64,000 bases of DNA, taken from a virus. Taxonomy: Duplodnaviria; Caudoviricetes. Every line of letters starts with the position of its first letter. Within the stretch, counting starts at the first letter, position 1. The stretch lies in the IMG/VR virus record IMGVR_UViG_3300022594_000001. One strand, 5' to 3'. A program made the translations under genes and the position numbers. Below, piece after piece: positions 2,799 to 59,934 of the stretch. The notes beneath the pieces were generated by a model. The model was not told the origin of the DNA, made no database searches, and saw only the letters and a program-made list of their open reading frames with translations.

Positions 2799-3989
2799 AT
2801 GAAGACTGCTGACAAACTACTTAACGTTTTAGTAAAAAATCATAGCGAGAATCTCAACAATTCTTTGCCGTATAAGGATGCACGAATTTTACATAGCTTG
2901 TGTAAGAGCATTAACGGTGATACTTTTATTACTGAAAATCAAGCAAAGCTGTTAATTAAAATTTTTAAAGAAAATCAAAAGGTATTAAAAGTGCTTGACG
3001 ATGAATTTGCAGATATAGTTGCTGATCCTACGTGGTCTCAACCATTTCGTCCTCAGGACACAACTAAAAAAGTATACATTGGAAAAATCAATGATGATGC
3101 TGAAGCCATTGTCATCGAATTTGCATATTCTTCCTCTATTCGCAAAAAAGTGCAGTCACTAACAAAGACTGTTTCCGGAATGGCCCAGGTACAAAGTGGC
3201 AAAATGTTTTATGCCGACTTCACTGAAAAGAACATTGTTACTATTGTTGACGAGCTTAAAGAATTTAATTTTGTTATCGAAGAAAGAGTGAAAAATTTCT
3301 ACGATACCATCAAATCTTGGGACAAAAATGTGGTAAGGGATCAGTTCCTATTAACGAACATTGTACACGATACCTTCCAAAAACAAATTACTGCAGACCT
3401 CGGTATTGACACTGCGATTGATCAAACCATCATTTCTGACCGTAGTAACCGGTATCAATATTTTACCGAAAAAACCGAAAAAAATCCGGAAAATTTGACT
3501 GAAAAAATTGCCTTACGAAATTCATCTAAAATTTGGATTGACAAGAATGCCACACCACTTGAAGAAATTTTTGAAAGTTTAACTGAACTAAAAAGATTAC
3601 CAGCACTTATTGTCTTTGACTCATTCGACTCAAAAGCATGTTCAAAAGAAATGGTAAAAATCAGTGAAATTTTGGAAAAAAATGGAATTTTTGACGACGT
3701 TGGAATTTACTTCAGATTGAACAACGATGAGAGTGGAAAAGTTTTTAATGACCTTATTAAAGATAAAAAGTATAATTGTAAGTTAACATCTACTACAAAA
3801 ATTGTAGGTGTGCAAAGCGGAAAAATTCCTAAATTTTTGTTAAAAACTGACTGGAAACCAATGAGTGTAATTTCAATTGGTACAGTACTAAGGCATAGCA
3901 AAACGGCAGTGTACGCCAACTGTTGTGATTTAATTATATCGTACACAGACAAGGAACCGATAATCGAGCCAAAAATGATATGGGAATAA
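2799..3989 (+). CDS. hypothetical protein
   Basis: 396-aa ORF overlapping uvsW start. Confidence 0.85.
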   Translation: MKTADKLLNVLVKNHSENLNNSLPYKDARILHSLCKSINGDTFITENQAKLLIKIFKENQKVLKVLDDEFADIVADPTWSQPFRPQDTTKKVYIGKINDDAEAIVIEFAYSSSIRKKVQSLTKTVSGMAQVQSGKMFYADFTEKNIVTIVDELKEFNFVIEERVKNFYDTIKSWDKNVVRDQFLLTNIVHDTFQKQITADLGIDTAIDQTIISDRSNRYQYFTEKTEKNPENLTEKIALRNSSKIWIDKNATPLEEIFESLTELKRLPALIVFDSFDSKACSKEMVKISEILEKNGIFDDVGIYFRLNNDESGKVFNDLIKDKKYNCKLTSTTKIVGVQSGKIPKFLLKTDWKPMSVISIGTVLRHSKTAVYANCCDLIISYTDKEPIIEPKMIWE

Positions 3990-5449
3990 AATTAATAATA
4001 AAAGATGAAGTAAACATCAAATTTGAAGGTCTTTCGCTTGATGCTCGTAAAAAATTAGCTAATACATTTAAGTATGAAGATCCAACTGCAAGGTACCGCC
4101 CGGCATTTAAATTAGGACGCTGGGACGGGACAACTAGTATGTTTGGACTAGGTGGTAACGGTTATTTAAACCAGTTAAAAAAGTGTTTCGAAATACTTAG
4201 TGACCTAGATATTGATATTGACGAAGTAGATGATTTAAGAAAACCTGTAAAAATTGAATTTGAAGAAGTTAAAAATAGTTATTGGGCGGATCTAGGTAAA
4301 GTGTGGCCGGAAGGACATAGATTTGCAGGACAACCTATAATGTTACGTGACGATCAGGTTGAAGTTGTTAACAGATTTTTCACAAATACGCAGGCATTAC
4401 AAGAAGTAGCAACAGGCGCCGGCAAAACAATTATGACTGCTACTCTAGCTCACTGTGCTGAGAAATACGGTCGTACTGTTACTATTGTTCCTAACAAAGA
4501 CTTAGTTACACAAACAGAAGAAGATTTTATCAACGTTGGTTTAGACGTGGGTGTTTATTTTGGTGATCGTAAAATGACTGGACATAAGCATACTATTTGT
4601 ACTTGGCAAAGTCTAAACGTGCTAGATAAGAAATCTAAAAACTGGGATGCAGAGTTAGCACTAACATTAGCAGAATTTTTAGAAGATGTAGAAACTGTTA
4701 TTGTTGACGAAGTGCATATGGCTAAGGCAAATGTATTGCAAGCACTACTTACGCAAAACTTAAGAAATGCTCCCATTCGTTGGGGATTAACAGGAACTGT
4801 ACCAAAAGATGAATTTGAGTCAGCACCAATTTTTGCAAGCATTGGACCAGTTGTAGGCGGCATTAAAGCACACGAATTACAGGACTTAGGTGTATTAAGT
4901 AATTTACAAATTCAAATATTACAACTAATAGACTTACCAGAATTTAAGTCATACTCGGAAGAATTAAAGTACCTAGTTACTAATAAAGAACGTATGACAT
5001 ACTTGGCAAATTTAATCAAAGGCATAGCGGATACAGGCAATACATTAATCCTAGTTAACAGGATTGATACAGGCAAATTTTTAACAGAACTAATACCAGA
5101 AGCAGCATTTATTTCGGGTGAAGTTAAGGGAACAAAGAGAAAAGAGGAGTACAAAGAACATGCAGTCAATGATAACAAGATCACTGTGGCGACTTTTGGT
5201 GTGGCCGCTGTGGGTATTAATATTCCTCGTATTTTTAATTTGGTTCTTCTTGAGCCCGGAAAGAGCTTTGTCCGCGTTATACAAAGTATTGGGCGAGGCA
5301 TTAGAAAAGCAGAAGATAAAGACTTCGTACAAATATGGGACGTTACGTCCACGTGTAAGTATGCGAAGCGTCACCTCACCCAGAGGAAGAAATTTTACAA
5401 GGATGCCAAATATCCCTTCTCGATTGAGAAAGTGGACTGGCAAAAATAA
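3980..5449 (+). CDS. uvsW: UvsW-like SF2 helicase
   Basis: ATGAGKT, DEVH, GLTGT, QSIGRGIR motifs. Confidence 0.92.
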   Translation: MGIKLIIKDEVNIKFEGLSLDARKKLANTFKYEDPTARYRPAFKLGRWDGTTSMFGLGGNGYLNQLKKCFEILSDLDIDIDEVDDLRKPVKIEFEEVKNSYWADLGKVWPEGHRFAGQPIMLRDDQVEVVNRFFTNTQALQEVATGAGKTIMTATLAHCAEKYGRTVTIVPNKDLVTQTEEDFINVGLDVGVYFGDRKMTGHKHTICTWQSLNVLDKKSKNWDAELALTLAEFLEDVETVIVDEVHMAKANVLQALLTQNLRNAPIRWGLTGTVPKDEFESAPIFASIGPVVGGIKAHELQDLGVLSNLQIQILQLIDLPEFKSYSEELKYLVTNKERMTYLANLIKGIADTGNTLILVNRIDTGKFLTELIPEAAFISGEVKGTKRKEEYKEHAVNDNKITVATFGVAAVGINIPRIFNLVLLEPGKSFVRVIQSIGRGIRKAEDKDFVQIWDVTSTCKYAKRHLTQRKKFYKDAKYPFSIEKVDWQK

Positions 5450-5454
5450 GGATT

Positions 5455-5961
5455 ATGCAGATACTAACATTAGATAACAAGACATTCGATTTAAACAATT
5501 TACCAGACGAAGTAGATGACAATACTAGGTTTGCCGTACTAGATAACAGTACACCTAGTGAACCAGATTTTTTCTTTCAACCACTGATATTTTTAGAGTC
5601 ATTTAACGCACCGGCAATGGTATTAAGAATCGGTGATGACGAAGTTACAATGCCCATTGATTGGAGCATTGCTGTAGGGGATAGTACTGCTGCTAGCGAT
5701 ATTGAAATTTTACCGTTAACTAGTTTAAACGACAGGGGATTTGAAGCATTAGTTTTTAACCCACTAAGTTCATTTAGAGTTGAATTTAAAAAGATTCAAA
5801 TTGTAAATTTTTACAATGACGTTAAATGGTATTTTCCTAAAATGAAAAACGGGCATTTATTATCAGTCCCGACCCGCATGGGGGATAAACCACCATGCGC
5901 ATACTTTGTTAAAGAAATTAGTAGACAAAGCGAAATTATTCAATTAGATAAGTTATTATGA
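5455..5961 (+). CDS. hypothetical protein
   Basis: 168-aa ORF in operon. Confidence 0.8.
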   Translation: MQILTLDNKTFDLNNLPDEVDDNTRFAVLDNSTPSEPDFFFQPLIFLESFNAPAMVLRIGDDEVTMPIDWSIAVGDSTAASDIEILPLTSLNDRGFEALVFNPLSSFRVEFKKIQIVNFYNDVKWYFPKMKNGHLLSVPTRMGDKPPCAYFVKEISRQSEIIQLDKLL

Positions 5962-6536
5962 TTGCTAATGTTTTATATGCTGTTCCAATTTGGGATATAA
6001 CGTATCCTGATTTTGCGTTTGAGAAAGATTCTCTTATTAGAGACTTTAAAGATTATTTAAAAGATAATCCTACGGAAATTCGATCAAATGTTAACGGACA
6101 GCATAGTAAAACATTACTCCACGAAGACTTTAGATTTAAAAAGTTGTTTGATTACATTACATTCGTATGTAATGAAGCTGCGGATTCTATCGGATTAGAC
6201 AAGAATCTGCGTGTTATGGAATCATGGGTTAATATTAATAATACACCCGGTGCGTTCAATCTCCAACATATACACGGAGGAGTAGTATCTGGAATTTTCT
6301 ATGTACAAGTTCCTAAAGGCAGTGGAAATTTATATCTGTCTAATCCGGCTCCTATAAACTTATGGGAGGGATTAAATAATGCCTATGAACGCAATGAGTA
6401 TTCTGGGGAGACAAGGGAAGTGCATCCTATAGAAGGTACAATCCTTATGTTTCCAAGTTACTTGCCACATAGTGTTGGCCCTAACACATCAGAAGTTGAA
6501 CGCATATCAGTGGCATTTAATACTACAAGGAAATAA
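5958..6536 (+). CDS. 2OG-Fe(II) oxygenase (TIGR02466-like)
   Basis: SWVN, HxH (QHIHGG), FPSYLPHSV, RISVAFN. Confidence 0.85.
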   Translation: MIANVLYAVPIWDITYPDFAFEKDSLIRDFKDYLKDNPTEIRSNVNGQHSKTLLHEDFRFKKLFDYITFVCNEAADSIGLDKNLRVMESWVNINNTPGAFNLQHIHGGVVSGIFYVQVPKGSGNLYLSNPAPINLWEGLNNAYERNEYSGETREVHPIEGTILMFPSYLPHSVGPNTSEVERISVAFNTTRK

Positions 6537-6537
6537 T

Positions 6538-6819
6538 ATGGGGAGTCTTAAACCGGGTGCTAAACTCGTATACGAACGTGCAGACAATGTAGTTTATTCT
6601 AGAGAATTTGGGTCAGACCCTAGCTCACGACAAGTTGTAGGTTGGGACTACGATCCTGAAAATCCACTATTTGATCCAAAGGCTGAAGGTAAAAAAGAAC
6701 TAGACGAACATAACGAATGGATAAGAATTCGACTAGAAGCAAAAACCAATCCTGCTTTACAAAAGGCAGTGGATCGTGTTATAATGATATACAAATTAAG
6801 TAAGGACAAATTACCATGA
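6538..6819 (+). CDS. hypothetical protein
   Basis: MGSLKPGAKLVYERAD; start moved to ATG just after previous stop. Confidence 0.75.
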   Translation: MGSLKPGAKLVYERADNVVYSREFGSDPSSRQVVGWDYDPENPLFDPKAEGKKELDEHNEWIRIRLEAKTNPALQKAVDRVIMIYKLSKDKLP

Positions 6820-7469
6820 CATTGAAAGTTGCATACTTTCAGCCAACTATAATGGCTATTGATCAAATTCCCCCGATCGAATTTAGCAAAATATACACGC
6901 TGGCAAATGAGATACATCAGCATTCAGAATTACATGATGCAGCAAATCCTTTTCTAAATATTAGAGGAGGACAGCAAATTCAAGTGTATCCTAATAAAAT
7001 AAATCTTGATGTTAACTGGCTAGTAAGTTACTTAGAAACATTGTGTCAAGGTTATATGGAACTTGTAACTGCGCAAAGCGGTGCTGAAGATTTAAAACTT
7101 TGCAAACCACAAGTTATTAGTATATGGTCCATTAGACAAAAACAAGGTGACTATCAAGAAATGCACAGTCATCCAGCTGGACATATAAGTGGCAACATGT
7201 ATGTTACAGTTCCTGAATATGAAGACGGTAGTAATCCGACAGATGGACAAATTGCATTTAAAATGCCCTTTACTAAAGATGTTAGTAAATTTATTTTAAA
7301 TGATACATGGAAGAATCAACCCCAAGCAGGCAGTATAATGGTTTTTCCAAGTCATATTCCACATACAGTTTATCCGTGGAAAGGCAACGGATACAGAACT
7401 GTGCTTTCCTTTGATGCTATACTAAGACCAAAGGATGATTTGCTACCACCGGAGTTTAGAAATGGGTAA
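6816..7469 (+). CDS. 2OG-Fe(II) oxygenase
   Basis: HSHPAG, FPSHIPHTV, RTVLSFD. Confidence 0.85.
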   Translation: MTLKVAYFQPTIMAIDQIPPIEFSKIYTLANEIHQHSELHDAANPFLNIRGGQQIQVYPNKINLDVNWLVSYLETLCQGYMELVTAQSGAEDLKLCKPQVISIWSIRQKQGDYQEMHSHPAGHISGNMYVTVPEYEDGSNPTDGQIAFKMPFTKDVSKFILNDTWKNQPQAGSIMVFPSHIPHTVYPWKGNGYRTVLSFDAILRPKDDLLPPEFRNG

Positions 7470-7947
7470 GAATAAGCACGTTGATTTATTTAACGATATG
7501 ATACCCGCAGTTGATATGAATGTCAAAGAACTGTGGGATGCCGTTACGGACGAAGGACGTAAAGAAATTAAAGGTGACTTGTGGAATCTTACCAGGTATA
7601 TCAGTAACGTAGACTCAACAAATGTGGAAGTACAGCAGCATTATGTGTTAACAGTAAACGAATACTATAATAAGCATTGGAACTTGCTACAAAAGAATCA
7701 TCCAAAGTTATTGTGGTTGTTATTGTGTATGTGTAATTATGACGGTAAGACTAAATTTTTTCATAAATGGCTTCCTTTGTCAAAAACTCCAGTAGACAAG
7801 AAAACAAGATTCTTAATGGAGATATACCCAGATATGAAAGCAGACGAAATAGAATTGCTTGCTAAAATTAACACAGATAAAGAAATCAAAGAACTTGCTC
7901 GACAGCACGGTATGGATGACGCTACTATTGCAAAGAAATTTAAATGA
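7462..7947 (+). CDS. putative clamp-loader small subunit (gp62-like)
   Basis: Size, position in replication module, helical pattern; weak motif recognition. Confidence 0.45.
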   Translation: MGKNKHVDLFNDMIPAVDMNVKELWDAVTDEGRKEIKGDLWNLTRYISNVDSTNVEVQQHYVLTVNEYYNKHWNLLQKNHPKLLWLLLCMCNYDGKTKFFHKWLPLSKTPVDKKTRFLMEIYPDMKADEIELLAKINTDKEIKELARQHGMDDATIAKKFK

Positions 7948-8639
7948 TGAATTTAACTGGAACTACATCTTTTACTTGTCAGTATTGTAATCACAAATTT
8001 ACTAAAGAAAAAACTTTAGCAGTGCATGTTTGTGAGCAAAAACGAAGAGCACTTGCACGTACAGAAAGGCATGTAGTACTAGGATATGACACCTATAATA
8101 AATTTTATAAACTCACTCAAAACTCCAAAGGTGACAAAAGTTATGACGATTTTGCTCGAAGTCCTTACTATAATGCTTTTGTTAAGTTTGGTAGCTTTGT
8201 TAGCAATGTCAATCCCTTATATCCAGATAGATTCATTCACTATGTTATTACTTCTGGGGTCAAGTTAGATCATTGGTGTCGAGACGAATTGTACGACAAG
8301 TATGTTGTAGATTTAGTTAAAACTGAAACAGTAGAAACTGCTCTCGAACGCAGTATTAAACATATGATGGATTGGGGAGAAGCAAACAATGCTCCGTGGA
8401 ACCATTATTTCTTATATGTTAGTTTAAGTCGAGCAACGTATGATATTAAAGATGGCAAGATTAGTCCTTGGTTTTTATTAAACTCTAGTAACGGAAAATC
8501 ACTACTGAAGAAATTGAACGATGAACAACTCAGTGCAATAAACAGCATTATGGATGTACCATTCTGGTTTAACAAATTTAAAAAACTTCCAGCTGATGTT
8601 GAACTTGTTAAACAAGTTGTCAAGGAGAGTAATATATAA
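7944..8639 (+). CDS. C2H2-like zinc-finger protein
   Basis: CQYCNHKFTKEKTLAVHVC at N-terminus. Confidence 0.7.
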   Translation: MMNLTGTTSFTCQYCNHKFTKEKTLAVHVCEQKRRALARTERHVVLGYDTYNKFYKLTQNSKGDKSYDDFARSPYYNAFVKFGSFVSNVNPLYPDRFIHYVITSGVKLDHWCRDELYDKYVVDLVKTETVETALERSIKHMMDWGEANNAPWNHYFLYVSLSRATYDIKDGKISPWFLLNSSNGKSLLKKLNDEQLSAINSIMDVPFWFNKFKKLPADVELVKQVVKESNI

Positions 8640-9205
8640 TGCCAGATATCGATATAGACTTTGCAAATAGAAAAAAAGCACTTGAAAAGTTCAAGCACGT
8701 TGCTGCTTCCATTGAAGAAAATGGTAATTTTAAAAAGCACAATACTGGCGTGTATTGTACTTCTATCCCGTACAACCCAATTACTGGTTCAAGTACTATT
8801 GATTATAAATTGGCAGAAAAAAGGGGATATTTTAAACTCGATTTCCTCAACGTAAGTGTGTACGAAGGCGTTATAAGTAAACAGCATCTAAATTCTTTGA
8901 TGCAAATGGAGCCTTTATGGGACTTACTGGAACAGGACGAATTCACAGATATGCTATTTCATGTGAATGGGCACGGGGACATTTTGAGAAAAATGAAACC
9001 AAGATCGATCGAGCAATTGGCTGCGGTATTGGCGATGATTCGCCCTGCAAAACGCCACTTGATAGGGAAAGATTGGAACGACGTGAACAGCGAAGTTTGG
9101 CTGAAACCAGAAGGCGATGAATATTATTTTAAAAAGGCACATGCAATTGCGTATGCGCATGTGGTAGTTGTACAAATGAATTTAATCTGTGAAGGATTAA
9201 ATTAA
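8639..9205 (+). CDS. miniature DnaE (Pol III alpha)-like protein
   Basis: PDIDIDF, HNTGVY, KLDFL, YFKKAHAIAY motifs in 188 aa. Confidence 0.8.
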   Translation: MPDIDIDFANRKKALEKFKHVAASIEENGNFKKHNTGVYCTSIPYNPITGSSTIDYKLAEKRGYFKLDFLNVSVYEGVISKQHLNSLMQMEPLWDLLEQDEFTDMLFHVNGHGDILRKMKPRSIEQLAAVLAMIRPAKRHLIGKDWNDVNSEVWLKPEGDEYYFKKAHAIAYAHVVVVQMNLICEGLN

Positions 9206-9576
9206 CGTCCTTTTCTAACTAGCTGTACAGACTTACGTTTTACACGTTTAAGCGTTAAATTCATTAGGTTAACTACTGGCCCTAACACAATGCGAACATC
9301 CTTGCTGTTGAACGTTTTAACAGCATACGCAAATGGTGTTACTTGGTCTCTACAAAAAATATTGATAGGAAATTGACGATTACTTTCCCACCACCAAGTT
9401 TCTCCTACCTCTAAAAATGCCGTTTTTTCCTCGGGAGTACGTATGGCATTTAAATCATAGAAGCTGGTTACAAATTGGTCTTGGTTAATAATAATGCCTA
9501 TATATTCTTCGCCGCCGTAGTTAATTACGCTTATAAACGGTAAATTTTGTTCTATGTTGTCTCTTAGTTTTGCCAT
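9202..9576 (-). CDS. hypothetical protein
   Basis: MAKLRDNIEQ start, convergent with mini-DnaE. Confidence 0.75.
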   Translation of the reverse strand: MAKLRDNIEQNLPFISVINYGGEEYIGIIINQDQFVTSFYDLNAIRTPEEKTAFLEVGETWWWESNRQFPINIFCRDQVTPFAYAVKTFNSKDVRIVLGPVVNLMNLTLKRVKRKSVQLVRKGR

Positions 9577-9602
9577 AAATACATTAATAAAGGTTTGCCA
9601 GA

Positions 9603-10694
9603 ATGCAAAAAATCTCAACATATTTATATCCAAACAGGATACAACTATTAGCCGATTTGGCGGGCTTCAATGTGGAGTATACAAACGTGTATCAAAGAAC
9701 AGTAAAGATTTATCAGGGCGTTGATAATGTTCTAGAATTTGACATCAAGAACGCAGACGAGAAGCGAATAGAATTAGTTACGAGCCCAGTAATTACAGAT
9801 ATTGCATTAAACGTTATGGATGCAAGCGGTAATGCCCTACCAACTAGTCCATATACTGTAACACCTAGCACAACAATCACAGGCATTGCAACTGTCACAA
9901 TTCCTAGCGCAGATTTAGAAGGGTTAACCTCTCAATTTTTAACGTATAGTGTAACTGCTACAAAAGATACAGCTACTATTCCTTTATACGGAGATAGTAG
10001 ATTTGGATTAAATGGAACAATTGAGTTAATCACCGATGCTATGCCAAAAGCTCGTCCTTCGAGAGTTATAAAAGACTTTGCAGCAGAAATCGATTTGCAA
10101 GGACGCCCAATTTATCATAGCAGTAGCATTCCTGCAAAATTCTATGAAGCAGTAAAAACTGAAACTTTGTCATTTGATATTCACGTAACTGGATTTGTAG
10201 GTTCAATTTGGATTGACGCAGCAACCAGTGATACAATTAGTGTTGAATCATGGAGGGCTGCTGGACGCCCATTCGGAACTTGGATTTGGAGTGGAGACTT
10301 GTTTACTGGTACTATACCATTTGCAACAACAGTTCCAGTAGGCGACTACGCTTATTTTAGAGTATCATATCAAACACCTACCTTTAACGGAATGGGTGCT
10401 ATTTTTGATGTTACACGCACTGGTGGTAATTACAATGTTACTATTAGTAAAGGTGGAACAGGTTACGGCGCTGGCGCAATTATTCGAGTTCCGGGAAGTT
10501 TATTAGGCGGCGTTGATGTTACAAACGACTTGTTCATAAACGTTACTGGATTAGAAGGTGGCGGCAATTCTAGCTATGTTGTAAGCTCAATTACAACTAT
10601 AACCCATACAGGAACAGCCGCAGCCGGTACTGGAACTTATACAGTTTCGGGTACTAATTATGCCGGAATAGTTGACTCTGTAACAGTGAGTTAG
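9603..10694 (+). CDS. putative virion structural protein
   Basis: CATAAATA late-type promoter upstream; Thr/Gly-rich beta-type C-terminus. Confidence 0.55.
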   Translation: MQKISTYLYPNRIQLLADLAGFNVEYTNVYQRTVKIYQGVDNVLEFDIKNADEKRIELVTSPVITDIALNVMDASGNALPTSPYTVTPSTTITGIATVTIPSADLEGLTSQFLTYSVTATKDTATIPLYGDSRFGLNGTIELITDAMPKARPSRVIKDFAAEIDLQGRPIYHSSSIPAKFYEAVKTETLSFDIHVTGFVGSIWIDAATSDTISVESWRAAGRPFGTWIWSGDLFTGTIPFATTVPVGDYAYFRVSYQTPTFNGMGAIFDVTRTGGNYNVTISKGGTGYGAGAIIRVPGSLLGGVDVTNDLFINVTGLEGGGNSSYVVSSITTITHTGTAAAGTGTYTVSGTNYAGIVDSVTVS

Positions 10695-10700
10695 TATAAT
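10672..10700 (+). promoter_or_regulatory. sigma70-type promoter, leaderless start
   Basis: TTGACT-17-TATAAT, ATG 5 nt downstream. Confidence 0.8.
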
Positions 10701-10705
10701 GGGGT

Positions 10706-11719
10706 ATGAGCCTCATTATCGAAACAATACAAGCATACTTACCTCCTAAGCGAAAGGTTACACTTAGCGGCTGGACAAGTTTCAATGCCCCTTGCTGTAG
10801 CGATAAAAAACAACGAGGCGGCCTTATTATTAATGCAGGCGAAGCTGTAAGTTATCATTGTTTTAATTGCGGCTTTAAAGCAAGTTGGCAACCGGGTAGG
10901 CACATTAGTCAAAAGATGAATAAACTAATGCGGTTGCTTAACATCCCAGACGATGTTATTAATCAATTACGCCTAGAAGCACTTCGATTAGATGAAAATA
11001 ATAACACAGTAATCCGAAGCATCATTCCTAAATTTGAAGAACGCACTTTACCAGAAGGTGCAAAAAGTTTAGAGGCATGGGGCAATTGGATTGAATTACA
11101 GGGTCCGGAAAATACAGAGCAGAGTTTAATTGATGCATTTTGTTACTTACGCAATATCCGTGGTTTAGATCCGTATGCGGCAGAATACTACTGGACTAAT
11201 AAAGTAGGATTCAAAAATAGAATTATTATACCGTTTACATATCAAGGTAAACTAGTTGGTTACACCGCAAGAGCAATTAAACCAGAAATTAGTCCTAAGT
11301 ATCTAAGTGAACAACAGCCAGGATATGTGTTTAATTTAGATGCACAAACGTTTGATCGTGAATTCGTAATTGTTTGCGAAGGCCCATTTGATGCGATAAG
11401 TATTGACGGATGTGCATTGCTAGGTGCAGAAATTAAAGATAGTCAAAACTGGTTGTTAAAGCAACTAGGCAAAGAAATTATTCTAGTACCTGATAGAGAC
11501 GAAGCAGGCAAAGCAACACTAGAAAAAGCGTTAGAATATGGATGGTCAATTAGTATGCCTGATTGGCCCAACAATGTTAAAGACGTTAACGATGCTGTAC
11601 TAAAATTAGGTAGACTAGCAACGTTATGGTTAATAGTTAGTGCAAAAGAATCGAATAATCTTAAAATTCAATTGCGAGCTAAAAAATGGTTTAAGGATAA
11701 CAATGAAGAAACTAATTGA
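10706..11719 (+). CDS. DNA primase (gp61-like)
   Basis: Zn ribbon (CC..HCFNC), TOPRIM CEGPFDA, DRDEAG, KDVND. Confidence 0.9.
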   Translation: MSLIIETIQAYLPPKRKVTLSGWTSFNAPCCSDKKQRGGLIINAGEAVSYHCFNCGFKASWQPGRHISQKMNKLMRLLNIPDDVINQLRLEALRLDENNNTVIRSIIPKFEERTLPEGAKSLEAWGNWIELQGPENTEQSLIDAFCYLRNIRGLDPYAAEYYWTNKVGFKNRIIIPFTYQGKLVGYTARAIKPEISPKYLSEQQPGYVFNLDAQTFDREFVIVCEGPFDAISIDGCALLGAEIKDSQNWLLKQLGKEIILVPDRDEAGKATLEKALEYGWSISMPDWPNNVKDVNDAVLKLGRLATLWLIVSAKESNNLKIQLRAKKWFKDNNEETN

Positions 11720-11816
11720 TTTTATTTTAACACCTTGGCACAAGTGGCAAGAGCATCGAGCTTATAAAAAGCGTATTGCAGAATTGCGTAAACGTGATCC
11801 ATTTATCTACAAATGA
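11703..11816 (+). CDS. small basic protein (37 aa)
   Basis: MKKLIDFILTPWHKWQEHRAYKKRIAELRKRDPFIYK fills gap with overlaps. Confidence 0.65.
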   Translation: MKKLIDFILTPWHKWQEHRAYKKRIAELRKRDPFIYK

Positions 11817-12769
11817 TTAGTTGGGGTATAAACGCTTTAAATCACGGCAGTAGCCTTGCTGTGTTTAAGAATGGCGAATACATAGACGGCTTTGTATCTC
11901 CTAATGATAATTTAGATCCTAATCAATTTAAATTAAATTTAGAATATCAAGGACCTCCGGATCGTATTTTCTGGTATGAACGTCCGTGGTTAAAGAAAGC
12001 TCGCCAACTGTATGCAGGGCAATACCGAACTGCATTTAGTTTAGACAATTTGCCTAGTACAAATTTAAAAAAGTGGGGCCTAGGATATGCACCTGTTACT
12101 TATACTTCTCATCATGGCAGTCATGCTGCCGCGGGATATTACACTAGCCCGTTTAACCATTGCGCAGTTGTTGTGCTTGATGCTATTGGTGAGTTCGAGT
12201 GTGCAACTATATGGAATTGCGTACACGGTGAAATGAAGAAGGTGTGGAGTAGAAGTTATCCACATAGCCTTGGATTATTTTACAGTGCATTTGCACAATT
12301 TGTTGGATTAACTCCTATTAGAGACGAATATCTATTAGAACAGATGGCTGCTCGAGGTAATCCAAGCGAGTTCCTACGTTATGTTAAAAGCTATTTTGAA
12401 TTTGGAGATACACTAAATTGCAATACAAACTTCCATCGCGGAGTTTTGCATTGGGACTTAAATGAACTAACTACATTGCAAGAACAGTGTGATTTAGCAG
12501 CAGCAGTACAGTGGGTCTTTGAAGATCAAGTGTATGCAGTAATGAAAAAAGCAAAAGAACTAACAGGAGCAGACTGTTTAGTTTATATGGGTGGCTGCGC
12601 TATGAACGGTACTGCTAATAAAAAATGTGTCGAACCAATGTTTAAATATCGGTGGAGTTTACCAAACCCGGGAGACCCGAGTAGTGCAATGGGCGCGGTA
12701 TTGTACCATACTAAAACACGAGTATGGAAGGACTGGGATACCGTCAAACACCTTGAGATTAAAGTTTAA
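11813..12769 (+). CDS. carbamoyltransferase (NodU/CmcH) N-terminal domain
   Basis: HHGSHAAAGYYTSPF, DAIGE, SLGLFYS, GGCAMN, GDPSSAMG; no C-terminal domain. Confidence 0.85.
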   Translation: MISWGINALNHGSSLAVFKNGEYIDGFVSPNDNLDPNQFKLNLEYQGPPDRIFWYERPWLKKARQLYAGQYRTAFSLDNLPSTNLKKWGLGYAPVTYTSHHGSHAAAGYYTSPFNHCAVVVLDAIGEFECATIWNCVHGEMKKVWSRSYPHSLGLFYSAFAQFVGLTPIRDEYLLEQMAARGNPSEFLRYVKSYFEFGDTLNCNTNFHRGVLHWDLNELTTLQEQCDLAAAVQWVFEDQVYAVMKKAKELTGADCLVYMGGCAMNGTANKKCVEPMFKYRWSLPNPGDPSSAMGAVLYHTKTRVWKDWDTVKHLEIKV

Positions 12770-24654: not shown

Positions 24655-24690
24655 AAAAAGCCCTACAAGCTATTAACTGCGTGTAGGGCT
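24655..24690 (-). terminator. terminator downstream of the 24713-25078 gene
   Basis: AGCCCTACA..TGTAGGGCT then T5 on minus strand. Confidence 0.7.
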
Positions 24691-24712: not shown

Positions 24713-25078
24713 TTAGTGTAAGCGTAGCTTGCTTAGGAGTGCGTCCGTTGCCCGTTTAGCTTGTGCATCAGCGCCCTGTGCGCTTACAATGTGTTGCGTA
24801 ATGTCTAGCTCTGCACTGCCTGCTAAGTCTGCTACATGCTTTAACAGTGTGTCCATTACTGCACTTGCGCCAGCGTTCAGCTTTAACTGTGCTTCTAGCA
24901 TATTAGCCATGTGCATTTGTATGTGTTGCTCGTAGTCGTGTGCATAGTTTGTAGCAATCCACTCTGCTACTTCTACTTCGTCTTCTAGCTCTTTAACAAA
25001 AATAGCCAGCGTAATCATCTTGTTGTGCTCGTGTGCTTGCCCAATAAACGCTTTTTTAAGTTCCGCAGTTGTAGTCAT
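24713..25078 (-). CDS. early hypothetical protein (TC/CC-free coding strand)
   Basis: GGAGCG RBS, TGnTATACT promoter, terminator. Confidence 0.85.
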   Translation of the reverse strand: MTTTAELKKAFIGQAHEHNKMITLAIFVKELEDEVEVAEWIATNYAHDYEQHIQMHMANMLEAQLKLNAGASAVMDTLLKHVADLAGSAELDITQHIVSAQGADAQAKRATDALLSKLRLH

Positions 25079-25222
25079 CTTGCGCTCCTAGTAGTTGCAC
25101 TGCCCGTTGCAGTATTACAAGTATAACACCTTTTGTTAGTTGTGCAAAAGTCGTTTGTTGTATTTGTGCAACATGTGTTAGCCATACGCTAGTTGTTCAC
25201 GTTATACCTCGGGGCAGCAGTT

Positions 25223-25353
25223 AGCCCCAATGGGCAAAAGTAAACAGCAGCGTTGCGCAGCATTGGGGCTAAACCCCAATGAGCGCAGCTAACACATTGT
25301 CATTGGGGCTCAGCGTTAGCCCCTGGGTGCATTCTGCAGTAGTCTCTGTGGCT
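25223..25353. repeat. three tandem AGCCCC/GGGGCT cassettes
   Basis: Spacers 36, 27, 24 nt; TTAGCCCCAATG/CATTGGGGCTAA 12-bp arms. Confidence 0.8.
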
Positions 25354-25371
25354 TATACGTCGTGCAGAGTC

Positions 25372-25400
25372 AAAAAAAACCCGGAGTATTAGTCCGGGCT
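25372..25400 (-). terminator. terminator
   Basis: CCCGGA..TCCGGG then T8 on minus strand. Confidence 0.7.
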
Positions 25401-25438
25401 GTAAAAGTTGCCTTAGCGCAACTAGGAGGGTAAACTTG

Positions 25439-25615
25439 TTATGCTTCGCCTTCTATGCGTAGCATTATTAATCCTGCAAACATCAAGCAACAGCCGCCTA
25501 GGCTAACGAAGAAACTACCAAACACTTGCCAGTTGTTTAGTGCTGTCTCTACCCCGCCTACGCCACCAAATGCAATCAATAAACCTAGTAACAATACTGC
25601 TCCGCCTTTAGTCAT
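25439..25615 (-). CDS. small membrane protein (58 aa)
   Basis: AAGGAG RBS; two hydrophobic segments; below ORF-track cutoff. Confidence 0.7.
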   Translation of the reverse strand: MTKGGAVLLLGLLIAFGGVGGVETALNNWQVFGSFFVSLGGCCLMFAGLIMLRIEGEA

Positions 25616-25616
25616 A

Positions 25617-25778
25617 TCAAACTCCTTGTGGTGTTGTTAAAATAATTGTACGCTTAAACACACGCTCGTCAATGTCTATTAGCCTACTACGTCTAATAGC
25701 CTGCTTGCGACTAGGCGCCCAAATTTCTACGCAAACTGTACGACTAGCAAGTGCAATGGCAATAGTGTATTTGTTCAT
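25617..25778 (-). CDS. small basic protein (53 aa), leaderless
   Basis: TTGCAC-16-TATACT then 6 nt to ATG. Confidence 0.55.
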   Translation of the reverse strand: MNKYTIAIALASRTVCVEIWAPSRKQAIRRSRLIDIDERVFKRTIILTTPQGV

Positions 25779-25884
25779 GTAGCTAGTATACAGTCATTTT
25801 GAGCGTGTGCAACAATTATTTTTGTCTGTTGTAAAGTCACACGCCGCTGCGGTAGTTGCAGATTGGGCAGCTGGGGCTATGCTA

Positions 25885-25931
25885 CGCCCCACGGAGGCGA
25901 TTTCGCATTCAAGATTTCACCAGGTGGGGCT
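25885..25931. repeat. CGCCCC-N35-GGGGCT cassette
   Basis: GCCCCAC..GTGGGGC arms; extra GGGGCT at 25873. Confidence 0.75.
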
Positions 25932-25940
25932 AGCTTAGTT

Positions 25941-25969
25941 AAAAAAATAGCGTAGCCGTGCTACGCTAT
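25941..25969 (-). terminator. terminator
   Basis: ATAGCGTAGC-ACG-GCTACGCTAT then T tract on minus strand. Confidence 0.8.
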
Positions 25970-25982
25970 GCAATTGCTGCTG

Positions 25983-26591
25983 TTAAACAGTAAGGCTTTG
26001 CTTTTGTGCGTTAAGCTGTACAATGCTGTCTAGCGCAATTGTGCGCACTTGCACTGTATGCAGTACGTCGTGCGTTTTGTTATGCACTACATTTGTCCCC
26101 GCTAGTAAGTCCTTTGCTGCGCTAGCTGTTAGCAAGGCTGCTACTTGTTGCTTAGTTGCTAGCGTGTTGTCAATAAACAACAAGCTATTAGCTGTGTTGT
26201 AAATTGCAAACAAATAAAACTTAGTTGCGTCTGTTTTGTGTTGCACTAAACTAAAAGTACTAGTGTGTGCAAAGTAATTGTCTTGCTGCTCAAACCCCGC
26301 AACGTTTTGTGCAGCATTATCTGCAATTTGTGCGGCTGTGCGCTTAACTGCTGCTGCGTAAACGTTTTTAAAATCGTTAACGTTGTTAAAAAGCTGTATG
26401 CTAGCTTGTGTAACTTTTTGCACGTTAACTGCTTTGTGCGCTGCTGCTGTTTTTACTTGCGTAACTTGCAGTACGCTTGCTAGTGTTATGCCGCGCACGT
26501 TTTGCAGTAGTTGCGCTACTTGCTGTGCGGTAATTGTGTTGTTGTTTGCACGTTGTTGCAATGCTTGCTGTGCTGTTGCTAGTGTTAACAT
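25983..26591 (-). CDS. early hypothetical protein (TC-free coding strand)
   Basis: GGAGCG RBS, GGTGTTATAGT -10, terminator; 202 aa with no P/W/C. Confidence 0.85.
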   Translation of the reverse strand: MLTLATAQQALQQRANNNTITAQQVAQLLQNVRGITLASVLQVTQVKTAAAHKAVNVQKVTQASIQLFNNVNDFKNVYAAAVKRTAAQIADNAAQNVAGFEQQDNYFAHTSTFSLVQHKTDATKFYLFAIYNTANSLLFIDNTLATKQQVAALLTASAAKDLLAGTNVVHNKTHDVLHTVQVRTIALDSIVQLNAQKQSLTV

Positions 26592-26743
26592 TTTGCGCTC
26601 CTAGTTGTTGCTGTGCTTTATTGCACGTAGTAACTATAACACCATTTTTGCGTTTGTGCGCATTTTTTTTAAATTATTTTTGTTGTATTTGCGCAACACG
26701 CATAGCCGTGCAGCAATAAAGTTGATGAATTTATTAAGGTTCC

Positions 26744-26901
26744 GGGGCTGTGCATAGCCCCACAGGGGACCTCTAAGATATCAGATCGATCGCTGCGGGG
26801 CTAACCACACGTTAGAAACCTAGGCGAAGAAAATCAATTTGCGGGGCTAGCTACGCCCCAGTCTCAGCAGCGGCTGCGTAGCAGAAATTCAGAGTGGGGC
26901 G
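26744..26901. repeat. cassette cluster in divergent promoter region
   Basis: Units 26756/26797 (35 nt) and 26854/26896 (36 nt); extra GGGGCT at 26744 and 26843. Confidence 0.8.
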
Positions 26902-26942
26902 GATCCCCGGAGGCAATGTTGAAGTAACCTCCGCGGCAGTTG

Positions 26943-28061: not shown

Positions 28062-28136
28062 TGGTCCGCCCTCCAGGAATCGAACCTGGATCCACAGCTT
28101 AGAAGGCTGCTGCACTGTCCATTGTGCTAAGGGCAG
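28062..28136 (-). tRNA. tRNA-Arg (UCU)
   Basis: Full cloverleaf, CT-TCT-AA loop, TTCGATT, encoded CCA. Confidence 0.95.
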
Positions 28137-28137
28137 A

Positions 28138-28212
28138 TGGTGGGCCAACTAGGAATTGAACCTAGACTCAATCGATTATGAGTCGACTGCTTTACCATTA
28201 AGCTATTGGCCC
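28138..28212 (-). tRNA. tRNA with CAU anticodon, probably Ile2 (lysidine type)
   Basis: Cloverleaf, GACTCATAATC arm as in ileX-type tRNAs, G1-C72 pair, encoded CCA. Confidence 0.9.
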
Positions 28213-53079: not shown

Positions 53080-53988
53080 ATGACCGTACAGGCACAAACT
53101 CAAAAAATATTAATTACAAACAAAATAGGCAGACAGATGTGGGTGTGGGATAGCGATAGCTTTTACACTCAACGACTACAGGCAGGCCCGTATCAAAAGC
53201 AAAACTTGATACATTTAAGAGAATTATGTCCTAGTCCAAGAAAGATGCTAGACATCGGTATGAACATCGGTATGAACACTTGGGAATACGCTACGTTTGC
53301 TCAAGAGGTGCATAGCTTTGAACCAGTACCTGCAACTTATCAAGTAGCACTAGACAACATTGCTCTTAATCAAAATCATCAAGATCCTAAATTAGGTTGG
53401 TGGAAGAACCCGGATGGAACTTGGGCTAGTCTAGCTCTTACAGGAAAAATACAAACTTATAATGTAGCATTGGGTCCAACGCCCGGTACTGTAGAAATGC
53501 ACATTAAAAAGAATGACGGGCACAATCGTGTGTCGAACGATGGCTACACTACTCCTACAGGTAAGACTGTTAAAACTAATACAGGCTATCAACGAGTAAG
53601 TGTTCCACAACATACACTAGACAGCTACAACTTTACAGATGTGGACATTATTAAGATTGACGTAGAAGGCTACGAGCTTAACGTGTTAGAAGGCGCAAGC
53701 AACACTATTGCTACTAATCGTCCAGTTGTACAAGTAGAGTGTGTAGAAACACAACCTAGAGCATTTGGCAAAACAATACAAGATTTATTTGATTATTTCA
53801 ATAGTCGCAACTATGTAATTACAACTGCCGACGGAGTTGTACGTGGACCTAAGTGGTGCTATGTTAAGAAGATGATGGATCGATTTATGATTCCAGCAGA
53901 GCGTACAGACTTATATGATCCTAACAAAGTTGCAGTAGACGACAGCGAGATAGTACTCAATCCAGATTTATTTGAAGTAGAAGAATGA
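53080..53988 (+). CDS. FkbM-family methyltransferase
   Basis: LDIGMNIG, FEP, IKIDVEGYE. Confidence 0.85.
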   Translation: MTVQAQTQKILITNKIGRQMWVWDSDSFYTQRLQAGPYQKQNLIHLRELCPSPRKMLDIGMNIGMNTWEYATFAQEVHSFEPVPATYQVALDNIALNQNHQDPKLGWWKNPDGTWASLALTGKIQTYNVALGPTPGTVEMHIKKNDGHNRVSNDGYTTPTGKTVKTNTGYQRVSVPQHTLDSYNFTDVDIIKIDVEGYELNVLEGASNTIATNRPVVQVECVETQPRAFGKTIQDLFDYFNSRNYVITTADGVVRGPKWCYVKKMMDRFMIPAERTDLYDPNKVAVDDSEIVLNPDLFEVEE

Positions 53989-54803
53989 AAATTTTAATTA
54001 CTGGCCATGAAGGATTTATTGGCCGGAATATGCTTGCTTGGTGCAATCAAGAAGAAGAATGGGAAGTCGATGGATGGGAGTGGGATCCTAACGACTTTCC
54101 TGATGTAAGCTCTTACGATTGGGTTATACACTTAGGTGCCATAGCTGATATGACATGCACCGACGTTGAAGCTATTCTAAAACAAAACTTAGAGTTTAGT
54201 CAAAGATTGTTTAACGAATGTAATCGCTATGGTGTTAACTTGCAATATGCAAGTAGCAGCTCAGTCTATGGCGATACTAAAGACTTTAGTGAATTTGCAC
54301 CCTGTCATCCACAAACTCCTTATTCTTGGAGTAAGTTTTTATTCGACCGCTGGGTGTTTCAACAACCGCAGCATGTTATGGTACAAGGATTCCGTTACTT
54401 TAATGTATACGGCAAGTATATGCATCTACGAGGTAAACGTGCTAATGCTATTCACAAGTGGAGAGAGCAAGCACGTAAGGAAGGTAAAATTACTGTATGG
54501 GATAATGCAGAGTTCATTAAGCGTGACTGGACCTGGGTAGGAGACGTATGCAAGTTACATATAGATTTTATCAAGACAGTTAATGGATCGGGCATATGGA
54601 ATGTAGGTAGCGGGCTACCGCATAGCTTCTTAGATATTGCAGAAGAAATAGCAGAACAAGAAGGTGTAGAATTAGAGTTTGAACCTGTGCCACAAGCAGA
54701 GTTAAGTCGTTTTAGACACAAGACTTGTGCAGACTTAACACACCTTAAAGAAACAATTGGCAAGCGCCAATGGTTAAATGTATTTGAATGGCTTAATCAA
54801 TGA
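53985..54803 (+). CDS. hldD: ADP-L-glycero-D-manno-heptose 6-epimerase-like
   Basis: GHEGFIG, YASSSSVYG, YSWSK, GFRYFNVYG, RDWTWV. Confidence 0.75.
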   Translation: MKILITGHEGFIGRNMLAWCNQEEEWEVDGWEWDPNDFPDVSSYDWVIHLGAIADMTCTDVEAILKQNLEFSQRLFNECNRYGVNLQYASSSSVYGDTKDFSEFAPCHPQTPYSWSKFLFDRWVFQQPQHVMVQGFRYFNVYGKYMHLRGKRANAIHKWREQARKEGKITVWDNAEFIKRDWTWVGDVCKLHIDFIKTVNGSGIWNVGSGLPHSFLDIAEEIAEQEGVELEFEPVPQAELSRFRHKTCADLTHLKETIGKRQWLNVFEWLNQ

Positions 54804-55396: not shown

Positions 55397-55432
55397 AATC
55401 AATAAATACATAATATTCCTTTGGAAACTATT

Positions 55433-57952: not shown

Positions 57953-58022
57953 ATATAACATTGAGCGTATAATAATATACTTCATAGGTTGGGTCTGTAA
58001 ACACAATCGAAAGAGGTTTAAA

Positions 58023-59811: not shown

Positions 59812-59934
59812 TCCAGAGAATCCTAATGACTATCCAGTCTATCCTGAAGACGATGGAACCGACCGTCCGAGAAATCCTTACAGCCCTGTATGAAGGGCTG
59901 GCAAGGTTCGGTTGTGGAATAGGTGGAATCCCAT

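What the first reader, a model, noticed from the sequence alone, without database searches (positions are those of the whole stretch)
24739..26723. Two early genes whose template strand almost never has a purine after G
Seen by manual scan: plus strand 24739-25210 has no GA and no GG; GA stays absent to 25280. 25930-26723 has no GA and only four GG (25994, 26136, 26334, 26529). The void covers promoters and UTRs as well as codons, so the minus (coding) strand lacks TC and nearly all CC, while GA/GG persist there at Asp/Glu/Gly codons and RBSs. Neighbouring genes (23697, 28219 onward) are normal. Inference, alternatives: (a) keeping the template free of context-specific hypermodified bases so host RNAP can read incoming DNA (established: preQ0 at GA/GGC in phage CAjan); (b) avoiding restriction or TC-targeting defences (GATC, GANTC, CCWGG, DarT TNTC, TC deaminases); (c) extreme strand-biased C>T mutation at YC as in UV damage.
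Basis: partly seen in the sequence, partly recalled or inferred. Interest (0 to 1): 0.87.

Follow-up and report, generated by a model that had tools for sequence, protein, structure and literature searches.

The report
Early phage genes purged of TC/CC
Two strongly promoted early genes of an uncultured pond jumbo phage, and up to 8 kb of early genes in its relatives, are written without TC or CC on the message strand, so strictly that their proteins lose proline and in some relatives also aspartate, glutamate, glycine and tryptophan. This looks like escape from something that reads that dinucleotide, and what reads it is still unknown.

Summary
Plus-strand GA gaps of 811 and 544 nt, against a mean spacing of 17 nt, occur only here in the 64 kb. 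Both genes are on the minus strand, so their sense strand lacks 5'-YC-3' and their template lacks 5'-GR-3'.

- **Not amino-acid composition:** with the proteins held fixed, 13.8±3.2 and 28.3±5.0 YC are expected; 2 and 4 are seen. Neither protein has proline.
- **Not C>T decay:** only 6 of 18 YC-site differences to the nearest orthologue are C>T, and C content is unchanged.
- **Conserved in relatives:** most of the 22 related loci have the void. It follows gene orientation and covers whole expression cassettes, from about 100-190 nt before the ATG to 30-120 nt after the stop. C-rich separator repeats bound the cassettes.
- **Extreme cases:** in some lineages GR also vanishes from the sense strand. 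There the Shine-Dalgarno is lost and the proteins have no P, D, E, G or W.
- **Labile:** a complete 364-kb relative has no void anywhere.

Best reading (0.45): a selected purge that hides the first-expressed messages or templates from a single-strand-specific enzyme with dinucleotide specificity. Rivals are Rho-blind RNA (YC is the unit Rho's primary site binds), avoidance of the phage's own 7-deazaguanine modification (weakened: CAjan, iggy and ACP17 have no voids), and self-immunity to a phage effector.

The scan found the same purge earlier in a marine jumbo phage (e1-5341439).

The parts
24738..25280 (-). Void 1. No TC on the minus (sense) strand over 543 nt, and no CC from 24738 to 25211. 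It covers promoter, leader and nearly all of gene 1.
24713..25078 (-). Gene 1 (P0001, 121 aa, acidic, no Pro or Cys). YC observed 2, minimum 0, expected 13.8. Sense GR is 36 against 37.4 expected, so it is not avoided and the void is one-stranded. Its orthologue in L006/L007 (48% identity) is also YC-void with normal GR.
25120..25148 (-). Gene 1 promoter-like site: TTTGCA, 17 nt, TATACT, with TG before the second hexamer.
24655..24690 (-). Hairpin plus T-run after the gene 1 stop (terminator-like by eye; not among the scan's hits). The few YC after 24738 lie in the last codons and in this stem.
   Evidence: sequence read directly
25930..26723 (-). Void 2. 794 nt with no TC and four CC on the sense strand; sense GA is also low (11). 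It starts about 85 nt upstream of the second promoter hexamer and ends about 10 nt after the terminator T-run.
25983..26591 (-). Gene 2 (P0002, 202 aa, no Pro, Cys or Trp; 1 Glu, 3 Gly). It founds a family of at least 268 metagenomic homologues. The AlphaFold model has pLDDT 91; no solved or named fold matches it significantly.
26633..26644 (-). Gene 2 promoter motif TGGTGTTATAGT (extended second hexamer), shared with other early genes. An RNA-library contig ends at 26640.
25938..25969 (-). Gene 2 intrinsic terminator: 10-pair stem at 25969-25947, then a T-run.
25211..25340 (.). Separator upstream of gene 1: alternating GGGGC / GCCCC inverted repeats that hold the first CC/GG outside void 1.
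25845..25929 (.). Separator downstream of gene 2, of the AGCCCC ... GGGGC type. The void ends at its first base.
26724..26905 (.). Separator array upstream of gene 2 (GGGGCT / AGCCCC units). The void begins right after it.

Best explanation
This is a selected, transcription-oriented purge of one dinucleotide class. Every 5'-YC-3' is removed from the sense strand, which means every 5'-GR-3' is removed from the template, across whole host-RNA-polymerase-type expression cassettes of immediate-early genes.

Most likely it makes the first messages and/or their DNA invisible to an enzyme that hits single-stranded nucleic acid at that dinucleotide. The enzyme would cut or chemically modify, so that one site is one hit. 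It is probably a sporadically distributed host defence. The purged genes would then be the ones that must be expressed while the enzyme is active, plausibly counter-defence proteins.

In some lineages the same rule is applied to the other strand too. GR then vanishes from the mRNA, the Shine-Dalgarno included.

Shown here: the purge, its strand rule, its cassette boundaries, selection rather than mutation, its conservation and its lability.
For: (1) Zero tolerance. There are 0 YC in 1,729 nt (L008) and 0 in 1,422 nt (L025), and YC is at or within three of the coding minimum in every void gene. Proline is absent from these proteins, and the Shine-Dalgarno is lost where GR is purged. So each single site carries a cost, as expected for a cutting or modifying enzyme.

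(2) The strand follows the gene. It flips with gene orientation within 1 kb in L008. In L008 and in window gene 1, avoidable sense GR sits at expectation while YC is 0. The rule is therefore tied to transcription polarity, not to duplex sites.

(3) Selection, not mutation.

(4) Lability. Void state is scattered on the P0002 tree, needing 8 changes for 9 void rows, no fewer than shuffled labels need. Within one well-supported clade the counts are L018 0/0, L022 8/5 and L017 31/20. A complete 364-kb relative has none. This is typical of an arms race with a patchy host factor.

(5) Only 1-8 kb per genome is purged, and it consists of small genes, many of them acidic, with their own sigma-70-like promoters and terminators.

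(6) Precedent exists for a defence enzyme with dinucleotide specificity on single strands: CmdT ADP-ribosylates A in GA of ssRNA, acts weakly on ssDNA, and its authors note that GA sits in the Shine-Dalgarno. DarT2 acts at TCTC/TNTC in DNA.
Against: No known bacterial enzyme has exactly YC (TC plus CC) or GR specificity.

The void reaches about 85-130 nt upstream of the predicted second promoter hexamer on the same strand. An mRNA-only target explains that only if read-through or processed transcripts span the whole cassette.

Other early genes in the window with the same promoter motif are not purged.

No void protein matched a known counter-defence family.

The host is unknown.
Confidence: 0.45

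Rival explanations
1. Rho-blind transcripts. Each cleft of Rho's primary binding site binds one 5'-YC dimer, so RNA without YC cannot recruit Rho. The earliest host-transcribed messages, with leaders up to about 130 nt, would then escape Rho's premature termination. P0002 might even be a Rof/YaeO-like anti-Rho factor.
For: YC is exactly the PBS ligand. The purge is on the RNA-sense strand and includes long untranslated leaders and intergenic parts. The anti-Rho tools named in the review I read are all proteins (lambda N, Q, Psu), so a cis solution would be new. The top row of a wide structure scan with the P0002 model is YaeO (Z 5.8, 68 residues, rmsd 2.8), tied with many Sm-like barrels.
Against: Rho binds several spaced YC cooperatively, so thinning should suffice. 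Absolute zero over 1-2 kb, loss of all proline, and purging of well-translated ORFs are not expected. It does not explain purging of the antisense strand, including the Shine-Dalgarno, nor the extension upstream of the promoter. Rho is near-universal, yet the void is patchy among close relatives. The YaeO match lies in the range the tool calls uninformative.
Confidence: 0.15
2. Avoidance of the phage's own context-specific G hypermodification. G in GR would be replaced or decorated (DpdA-type 7-deazaguanine, perhaps glycosylated), and immediate-early templates and promoters are kept free of it so that host RNA polymerase can use incoming DNA.
For: Known DpdA motifs are GA and GGC (CAjan) or GA (iggy). 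Bulkier 7-substituted 7-deazaguanines almost abolish transcription by E. coli and B. subtilis polymerases in vitro. Scan notes report a DpdA/FolE/QueD/QueE/DpdL/GT-B cluster elsewhere in this genome (I could not check it). Relatives carry FolE, QueD-like and QueE-like genes. It gives a natural order of template strand first, other strand second.
Against: CAjan, iggy and 119 kb of ACP17 show no void beyond chance. DpdA3/DpdL-type systems replace all G. Plain 7-deazaG is fully tolerated, and the in vitro block acted at initiation, without truncated transcripts. The void-free complete relative G001 has homologues of the pathway genes. Three of the four residual GG in gene 2 are GGC. Void state flips between near-identical relatives.
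Confidence: 0.12
3. Self-immunity to a phage-encoded early effector. An RNA-binding protein or nuclease used for host shut-off would read YC, and the purge spares the phage's own first messages.
For: The most consistently purged gene (P0002) has a confident but unknown fold with weak Sm-like barrel resemblance. The purged set is early and strongly promoted.
Against: All later phage genes are full of YC. No nuclease or RNA-binding family was detected in P0002. P0002 orthologues exist in lineages with no void.
Confidence: 0.08
4. Avoidance of duplex-DNA targets: restriction sites or CRISPR PAMs of the CC, TTC or NGG type.
For: Where both strands are purged (L009, L018, L026, L025), no CC/GG or TC/GA step remains, which would remove such PAMs and many sites.
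Against: Duplex targets are strand-symmetric. In L008 and in window gene 1, avoidable sense GR is not avoided at all. Palindromic 4-mers are not avoided genome-wide, and many 6-mer palindromes abound inside the voids.
Confidence: 0.04
5. A mutational footprint (UV or deaminase C>T at YC on the non-transcribed strand), or a by-product of selection for translation efficiency or RNA structure.
For: TT is enriched in the voids, at 1.3-1.8 times expectation. YC-free RNA cannot pair with its own GGAG.
Against: Only a third of YC-site differences are C>T. C content is unchanged, with GC at 1.9-2.7 times expectation. Neighbouring genes under the same mutational regime are normal. The template strand, where UV lesions would block polymerase, keeps its dipyrimidines. 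No highly expressed gene elsewhere in these genomes shows the pattern.
Confidence: 0.04

Closest known systems
CmdTAC defence: CmdT ADP-ribosylates A in GA dinucleotides of single-stranded RNA (PMC11618068)
   Same: It is a defence enzyme whose whole specificity is a dinucleotide on single strands, and one hit blocks translation. GA lies in the Shine-Dalgarno. In L018/L025-type lineages the purge removes GA and GG from the mRNA, Shine-Dalgarno included.
   Different: The primary, universal purge is YC on the message, not GA. In window gene 1 and the L008 cluster, mRNA GA is untouched. AA and AG are never purged. No purge of this kind is reported in that paper.
Rho primary binding site and rut sites (YC dimers; PMC6144790, PMC12360218)
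   Same: The dinucleotide class is identical (5'-YC-3' in RNA), and the targets are host-transcribed, partly untranslated phage RNAs.
   Different: Rho needs several spaced YC, so it does not predict zero tolerance, antisense purging, or patchiness among relatives.
Context-specific 7-deazaguanine DNA of phages CAjan (GA, GGC) and iggy (GA) (PMC7544227, PMC10484667)
   Same: It is a G-centred context resembling GR, and the phages make the modification themselves. This phage clade carries parts of the same pathway.
   Different: Those phages, and ACP17, have no motif-free genes. The void here tolerates GGC. DpdL/DpdA3-type systems modify every G.
ACA-free messages that resist the MazF endoribonuclease; CpG and UpA suppression in vertebrate RNA viruses (my own knowledge, not checked here)
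   Same: The principle is the same: a message escapes a sequence-specific RNA-targeting factor by lacking its short motif.
   Different: Those cases involve a trinucleotide in engineered or single genes, or a statistical thinning. Here two dinucleotides are absent over kilobases, with promoters, terminators, ribosome-binding sites and the protein alphabet rebuilt around the ban.
DarT2 (TNTC/TCTC in DNA; specificity read from PMC12945103, which cites its role in phage defence)
   Same: It is a defence that reads a TC-containing motif in DNA. A TC-free strand has no TNTC.
   Different: CC is purged as strictly as TC, which DarT2 does not explain.

Membership tests
Restriction-site / palindrome avoidance | Depletion is the same on both strands | tested here: not met
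   Window gene 1 has YC 2 against 13.8 expected, but GR 36 against 37.4. L008 acidic genes have YC 0 and GR at or above expectation.
Restriction-site / palindrome avoidance | Specific 4-6 bp sites are under-represented | tested here: not met
   All 16 4-mer palindromes have observed/expected ratios of 0.57-1.16, and the ratios do not split by GR/YC content. GCTAGC, TGCGCA and GTTAAC abound in the voids.
Rho-evading (rut-free) RNA | No YC dimers in the transcript | tested here: met
   0 TC and 4 CC in 794 nt; 0 TC in 543 nt; 0 YC in 1,729 nt of L008.
Rho-evading (rut-free) RNA | The constraint is confined to the transcribed sense RNA | tested here: not met
   The antisense strand is also purged in L009, L016, L018, L025 and L026, down to the coding minimum and with loss of GGAG. 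The void also runs about 85-130 nt upstream of the predicted second promoter hexamer.
Rho-evading (rut-free) RNA | Rho actually terminates YC-containing versions | not testable with these tools
   This needs termination assays.
Avoidance of own DpdA-type modified G | The phage encodes a DNA guanine transglycosylase and a deazaguanine pathway | tested here: inconclusive
   No whole genome is held for the window, and PF01702 was not found in 13 related contigs. FolE, QueD-like and QueE-like genes are present in G001-G003. Scan notes report a DpdA cluster in this genome, unverified.
Avoidance of own DpdA-type modified G | Phages with this kind of modification show motif-free early genes | tested here: not met
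   In CAjan, iggy and ACP17 the longest GA and GR gaps are close to what chance predicts.
Avoidance of own DpdA-type modified G | Void presence tracks pathway presence among relatives | tested here: not met
   Complete genome G001 has homologues of the ACP17 QueD, FolE, QueE and two cluster genes, yet no void anywhere.
CmdT-type GA-in-mRNA evasion | GA is absent from the message, ribosome-binding site included | tested here: not met
   The window genes have 27 and 11 sense GA and keep a GGAGCG ribosome-binding site. The feature is met only in L018/L025/L022/L026-type lineages.
UV / deaminase mutational signature | Losses of YC are mainly C>T, and C content falls | tested here: not met
   6 of 18 differences are C>T for window against L006, and 2 of 8 for L022 against L018. 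C is 22-23% in the voids against 20-26% in the flanks.

The most novel reading that the evidence does not exclude
There may be an undescribed enzyme, host defence or phage weapon, that attacks single-stranded nucleic acid at every pyrimidine-C step (or every G-purine step on the complement). Its pressure would be strong enough that giant phages rewrite their first genes with a reduced DNA vocabulary, build promoters, terminators and ribosome-binding sites without those steps, and make working proteins from 15 amino acids. Alternatively, these may be the first natural Rho-invisible messages, perhaps encoding a Rof-like anti-Rho protein.
Probability: 0.4. Interest if true: 0.9.

Novelty: new variant of a known kind. 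Interest (0 to 1): 0.8.

Why it matters
Motif avoidance is a known way for viruses to dodge sequence-reading factors. Here it is absolute, works at dinucleotide level, is tied to the transcribed strand, and is strong enough to remove whole amino acids and the Shine-Dalgarno from functional genes. That implies a strong and widespread selective agent in freshwater (and, per the earlier scan note, marine) bacteria that has not been identified.

The purged cassettes mark which phage genes must work first, so they are a shortlist of likely counter-defence proteins; all are of unknown family. They also give a ready assay: restore YC synonymously and see what kills expression.

Folded proteins without P, D, E, G or W are of interest for reduced-alphabet protein design.

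The three main readings (defence enzyme, Rho, own DNA modification) make different and cheap experimental predictions.

Tried and rejected
- **Phage databases and families:** DNA and protein searches of the GenBank phage collection with the region, P0002 and a 637-aa neighbour found nothing. PHROGs, Pfam and NCBIfam gave no family for P0001, P0002 or ten void proteins of relatives.
- **Fold searches with the P0002 model:** PDB and Swiss-Prot Foldseek gave nothing significant. AFDB clusters gave only uncharacterised proteins. The wide VIA scan gave only Z below 6 Sm-like barrels, with YaeO on top but tied.
- **Complex prediction of P0002 with E. coli Rho:** no answer, so no evidence either way.
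- **Own genome:** it is not held, so I could not verify the DpdA cluster reported by scan notes. PF01702 found no TGT-like gene in 13 related contigs, but DpdA3-type enzymes are too divergent for that model.
- **DpdA3 candidate:** BLAST of the ACP17 candidate DpdA3 and GT4 against G001, G004, G005 and all loci gave no hit. This is inconclusive.
- **Phage CDA-fold deaminase as the YC reader:** homologues are also present in void-free genomes, so there is no correlation.
- **RNA evidence:** one freshwater metatranscriptome holds contigs over both genes (24784-25685 and 26125-26640), but these are assembled contigs at depth about 6. Expression and ends are only hinted at.
- **Replication-strand explanation:** rejected, because void polarity flips between adjacent convergent and divergent genes.
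- **UV-lesion avoidance:** rejected, because the template keeps its dipyrimidines and TT is enriched.
- **Literature:** I found no paper describing such a purge.
Full report
**1.

On the plus strand, 24739-25210 has no GA and no GG, and GA stays absent from 24738 to 25280. GA occurs on average every 17 nt in the window. The two gaps (811 and 544 nt) are about four and 2.6 times the next longest GA gap of 206 nt. In 300-nt windows only these two regions have fewer than 15% of G followed by a purine, apart from one marginal window at 32101.

The genes inside are on the minus strand: 24713-25078 (P0001, 121 aa) and 25983-26591 (P0002, 202 aa). The rule is therefore 'no 5'-YC-3' on the sense strand', which is the same as 'no 5'-GR-3' on the template'. 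The stretch is held by many independent pond and freshwater runs from ten studies.

**2. It is not amino-acid composition**

With each protein held fixed and codons drawn from the window's own usage, 13.8±3.2 and 28.3±5.0 YC are expected; 2 and 4 are seen. A dynamic-programming minimum shows 0 is attainable. The proteins themselves are shaped by the rule. Neither has proline, against 4.7% in the window's other genes.

Promoter, leader and terminator are purged too. C content is not reduced, at 22-23%. C is re-housed after purines, with GC at 1.9-2.7 times expectation. Six neighbouring early genes are normal.

**3. What the window is**

It is part of an uncultured jumbo phage. It carries RecA-like, DnaB-like and helicase genes, lysozymes, two tRNAs, sugar-nucleotide genes, a nuclease and a CDA-fold deaminase. 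P0002 occurs on contigs up to 345 kb. Nothing similar is in the GenBank phage collection. The habitat is ponds and fresh water.

**4. Relatives show the same thing, often far larger**

P0002 has at least 268 metagenomic homologues. I obtained 25 loci around them, some of them duplicates of one another.

- **L008 (58% identity).** Five tandem plus-strand genes (284-2551) have 0 TC and 0 CC on the plus strand. Two minus-strand genes next to them (2953-3586) have 0 GA and 0 GG on the plus strand, so the void flips with gene orientation. The P0002 orthologue lacks TC, CC, GA and GG altogether.
- **L025.** About 8 kb (4203-12545) is nearly YC-free.
- **Whole contigs.** Two scanned whole (154 and 123 kb) have voids only beside the P0002 homologue, and none of eight control dinucleotide pair sets gives a gap of 180 nt or more.
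- **P0002 orthologues.** They span a continuum, from 0 YC and 0 GR with proteins lacking P, D, E, G and W (L009, L018, L026) to normal composition (L010, L011, L020, L027).
- **P0001.** Its orthologue in L006/L007 (48% identity) is YC-void with normal GR.

**5. One strand or two**

In window gene 1 and the L008 acidic genes, sense-strand GR sits at the synonymous expectation: 36 against 37.4, and 39 against 37.8. YC is 2 and 0 respectively. The rule there is truly strand-specific.

In L025 most void genes have GR exactly at the minimum their protein allows and the rest within three of it (37/36, 24/24, 16/16, 1/1 ...), so there both strands are constrained. Window gene 2 is intermediate, at 18 against 27.9 with a minimum of 12.

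In the non-coding parts of 23 void units, sense GR is 0.019-0.026 per nt, against 0.06-0.09 for those loci overall. In L018, L022, L025 and L026 even GGAG is gone from the leader and TAAGT-like leaders remain.

GR is the exact reverse complement of YC. I therefore read the second purge as the same rule applied to the other strand, not as a second, unrelated constraint.

**6. The unit is the expression cassette**

Across loci a void typically starts 100-190 nt before the ATG and ends 30-120 nt after the stop. It contains a sigma-70-like promoter, a Shine-Dalgarno where GR is allowed, and a hairpin terminator built without the banned steps. The promoters are TTGCAY-N17-TATAAY in L008, and TGGTGTTATAST with TTTGCA- or TTGCAC-type first hexamers in the window.

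The edges fall on conserved C-rich/G-rich separator repeats. These are GCGCCCC...GGCCCCGCTGC in L025 and L008, and AGCCCC...GGGGCT in the window.

Void 2 ends about 10 nt after its terminator's T-run and begins about 85 nt upstream of the second promoter hexamer. An RNA-library contig ends at 26640, but contig data cannot fix transcript ends.

**7. Selection, not mutation, and fast turnover**

Between the window and its nearest orthologue (75% aa identity), 18 YC sites differ. Six are TC>TT. The rest are CC>GC, CC>CA, TC>AG and similar. L018 (0 YC, 0 GR), L022 (8, 5) and L017 (31, 20) sit in one well-supported clade, and the L022/L018 differences are again mostly not C>T.

On a maximum-likelihood tree of 22 P0002 proteins the void label needs 8 changes for 9 rows, no fewer than shuffled labels need. 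A complete relative with terminal repeats (G001, 364.6 kb) has no YC or GR gap beyond chance anywhere.

**8.

Each cleft of Rho's primary binding site binds a 5'-YC dimer. YC-free RNA should therefore be invisible to Rho, and the phage anti-Rho tools listed in the review I read are all proteins.

Against this, Rho binds several spaced dimers, so thinning should be enough. Zero tolerance, purging of well-translated ORFs, purging of the antisense strand and patchiness among relatives are not predicted.

The P0002 model (pLDDT 91) has no significant match. The top row of a wide scan is the Rho inhibitor YaeO, but at Z 5.8 it is tied with many Sm-like barrels.

**9.

CAjan modifies G in GA and GGC, and iggy in GA. 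Bulky 7-substituted deazaguanines inhibit bacterial polymerases in vitro. Scan notes report a DpdA/DpdL/GT-B cluster elsewhere in this genome (unverifiable here).

Several results argue against this reading:

- CAjan, iggy and 119 kb of ACP17, which has a QueD-FolE-GT4-QueE cluster, have no voids.
- DpdA3/DpdL systems replace all G.
- Plain 7-deazaG is tolerated, and the in vitro block acted at initiation.
- The void-free G001 has homologues of the ACP17 QueD, FolE, QueE and two cluster genes.
- Three of the four GG tolerated in gene 2 are GGC.

**10.

The features that remain are these: every single site is costly, the rule follows the transcribed strand, the state is labile, and only a few first-expressed genes are affected. 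They fit best an enzyme that cuts or modifies single strands at this dinucleotide and that only some hosts carry.

CmdT (GA in ssRNA, weak on ssDNA) shows such enzymes exist. DarT2 reads TCTC. None known reads TC plus CC. From sequence alone I cannot tell whether the target is YC on mRNA or on the sense DNA strand, or GR on the template.

**11. Rejected readings**

I reject duplex restriction or PAM avoidance, because of the one-strand voids and because palindromes are not avoided.

**12. Prior record and verdict**

I found no paper describing it.

Verdict: this is a real, conserved, strongly selected and striking feature. Its mechanism is open, and the leading readings give clearly different, testable predictions.

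Noticed in passing
L018:9816-14560, L025:7669-11465, L022:12687-13186, L026:5568-6514: In lineages where GR is also purged, the genes have no GGAG-type ribosome-binding site. Their leaders end in A-rich TAAGT / AAAGT-like words, which may pair with the very 3' end of 16S rRNA without using GG or GA.
   Followed up: partly
L009:3316-3927, L018:9944-10510, L026:9995-10513: These P0002 orthologues have no Pro, Asp, Glu, Gly or Trp at all. The family as a whole (represented by the window protein) gives a confident AlphaFold model.
   Followed up: partly
window 25211-25340, 25845-25929, 26724-26905; L025:5620-5670; L008:2551-2620: Conserved C-rich/G-rich inverted-repeat separators (AGCCCC..GGGGCT, GGCCCCGCTGC) sit exactly at void edges and keep their CCCC/GGGG. 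Their function is unknown; they could be processing sites, insulators, or binding sites for whatever reads the dinucleotide.
   Followed up: partly
window 25983-26591 (P0002 model): The top row of a wide structural scan is the Rho inhibitor YaeO/Rof (Z 5.8, 68 residues), followed by Hfq/Sm and WYL barrels. The scores are too weak to assign anything, but this is a lead given that Rho reads YC.
   Followed up: partly
window 56357-56804: A 447-nt gap without CC on the plus strand lies inside the plus-strand gene 55421-56818. It is the longest CC gap in the window (mean spacing 30 nt). TC is not absent there.
   Followed up: no
window 59923-60384, 58981-59811, 57945-58535: A CDA-fold zinc deaminase that matches no dCMP-deaminase equivalog lies beside a DNA/RNA non-specific endonuclease and an HNH endonuclease. 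CDA-fold deaminase genes (same Pfam family) also occur in void-free relatives.
   Followed up: partly
window 53080-55396 and 60980-62182: A sugar-nucleotide type gene set is present: FkbM methyltransferase, NAD-dependent epimerase/dehydratase, HAD phosphatase and a class I/II aminotransferase. It may decorate something (virion, or DNA).
   Followed up: no
window 28062-28212: tRNA-Arg(TCT) and tRNA-Met genes lie back to back on the minus strand, at the edge of the early region.
   Followed up: no
window 24739-26723: CTAG, and GCTAGC in particular, is unusually frequent inside the voids. CTAG is not avoided in the window as a whole (observed/expected 1.16).
   Followed up: partly
L052:2933-3388 (G002); L070:7568-14467 (G001): Void-free relatives carry a UvdE UV endonuclease. 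G001 also has a QueE-like / epimerase / DpdL-like gene group, but no detectable homologue of the ACP17 candidate DpdA3 or its GT4 glycosyltransferase.
   Followed up: partly
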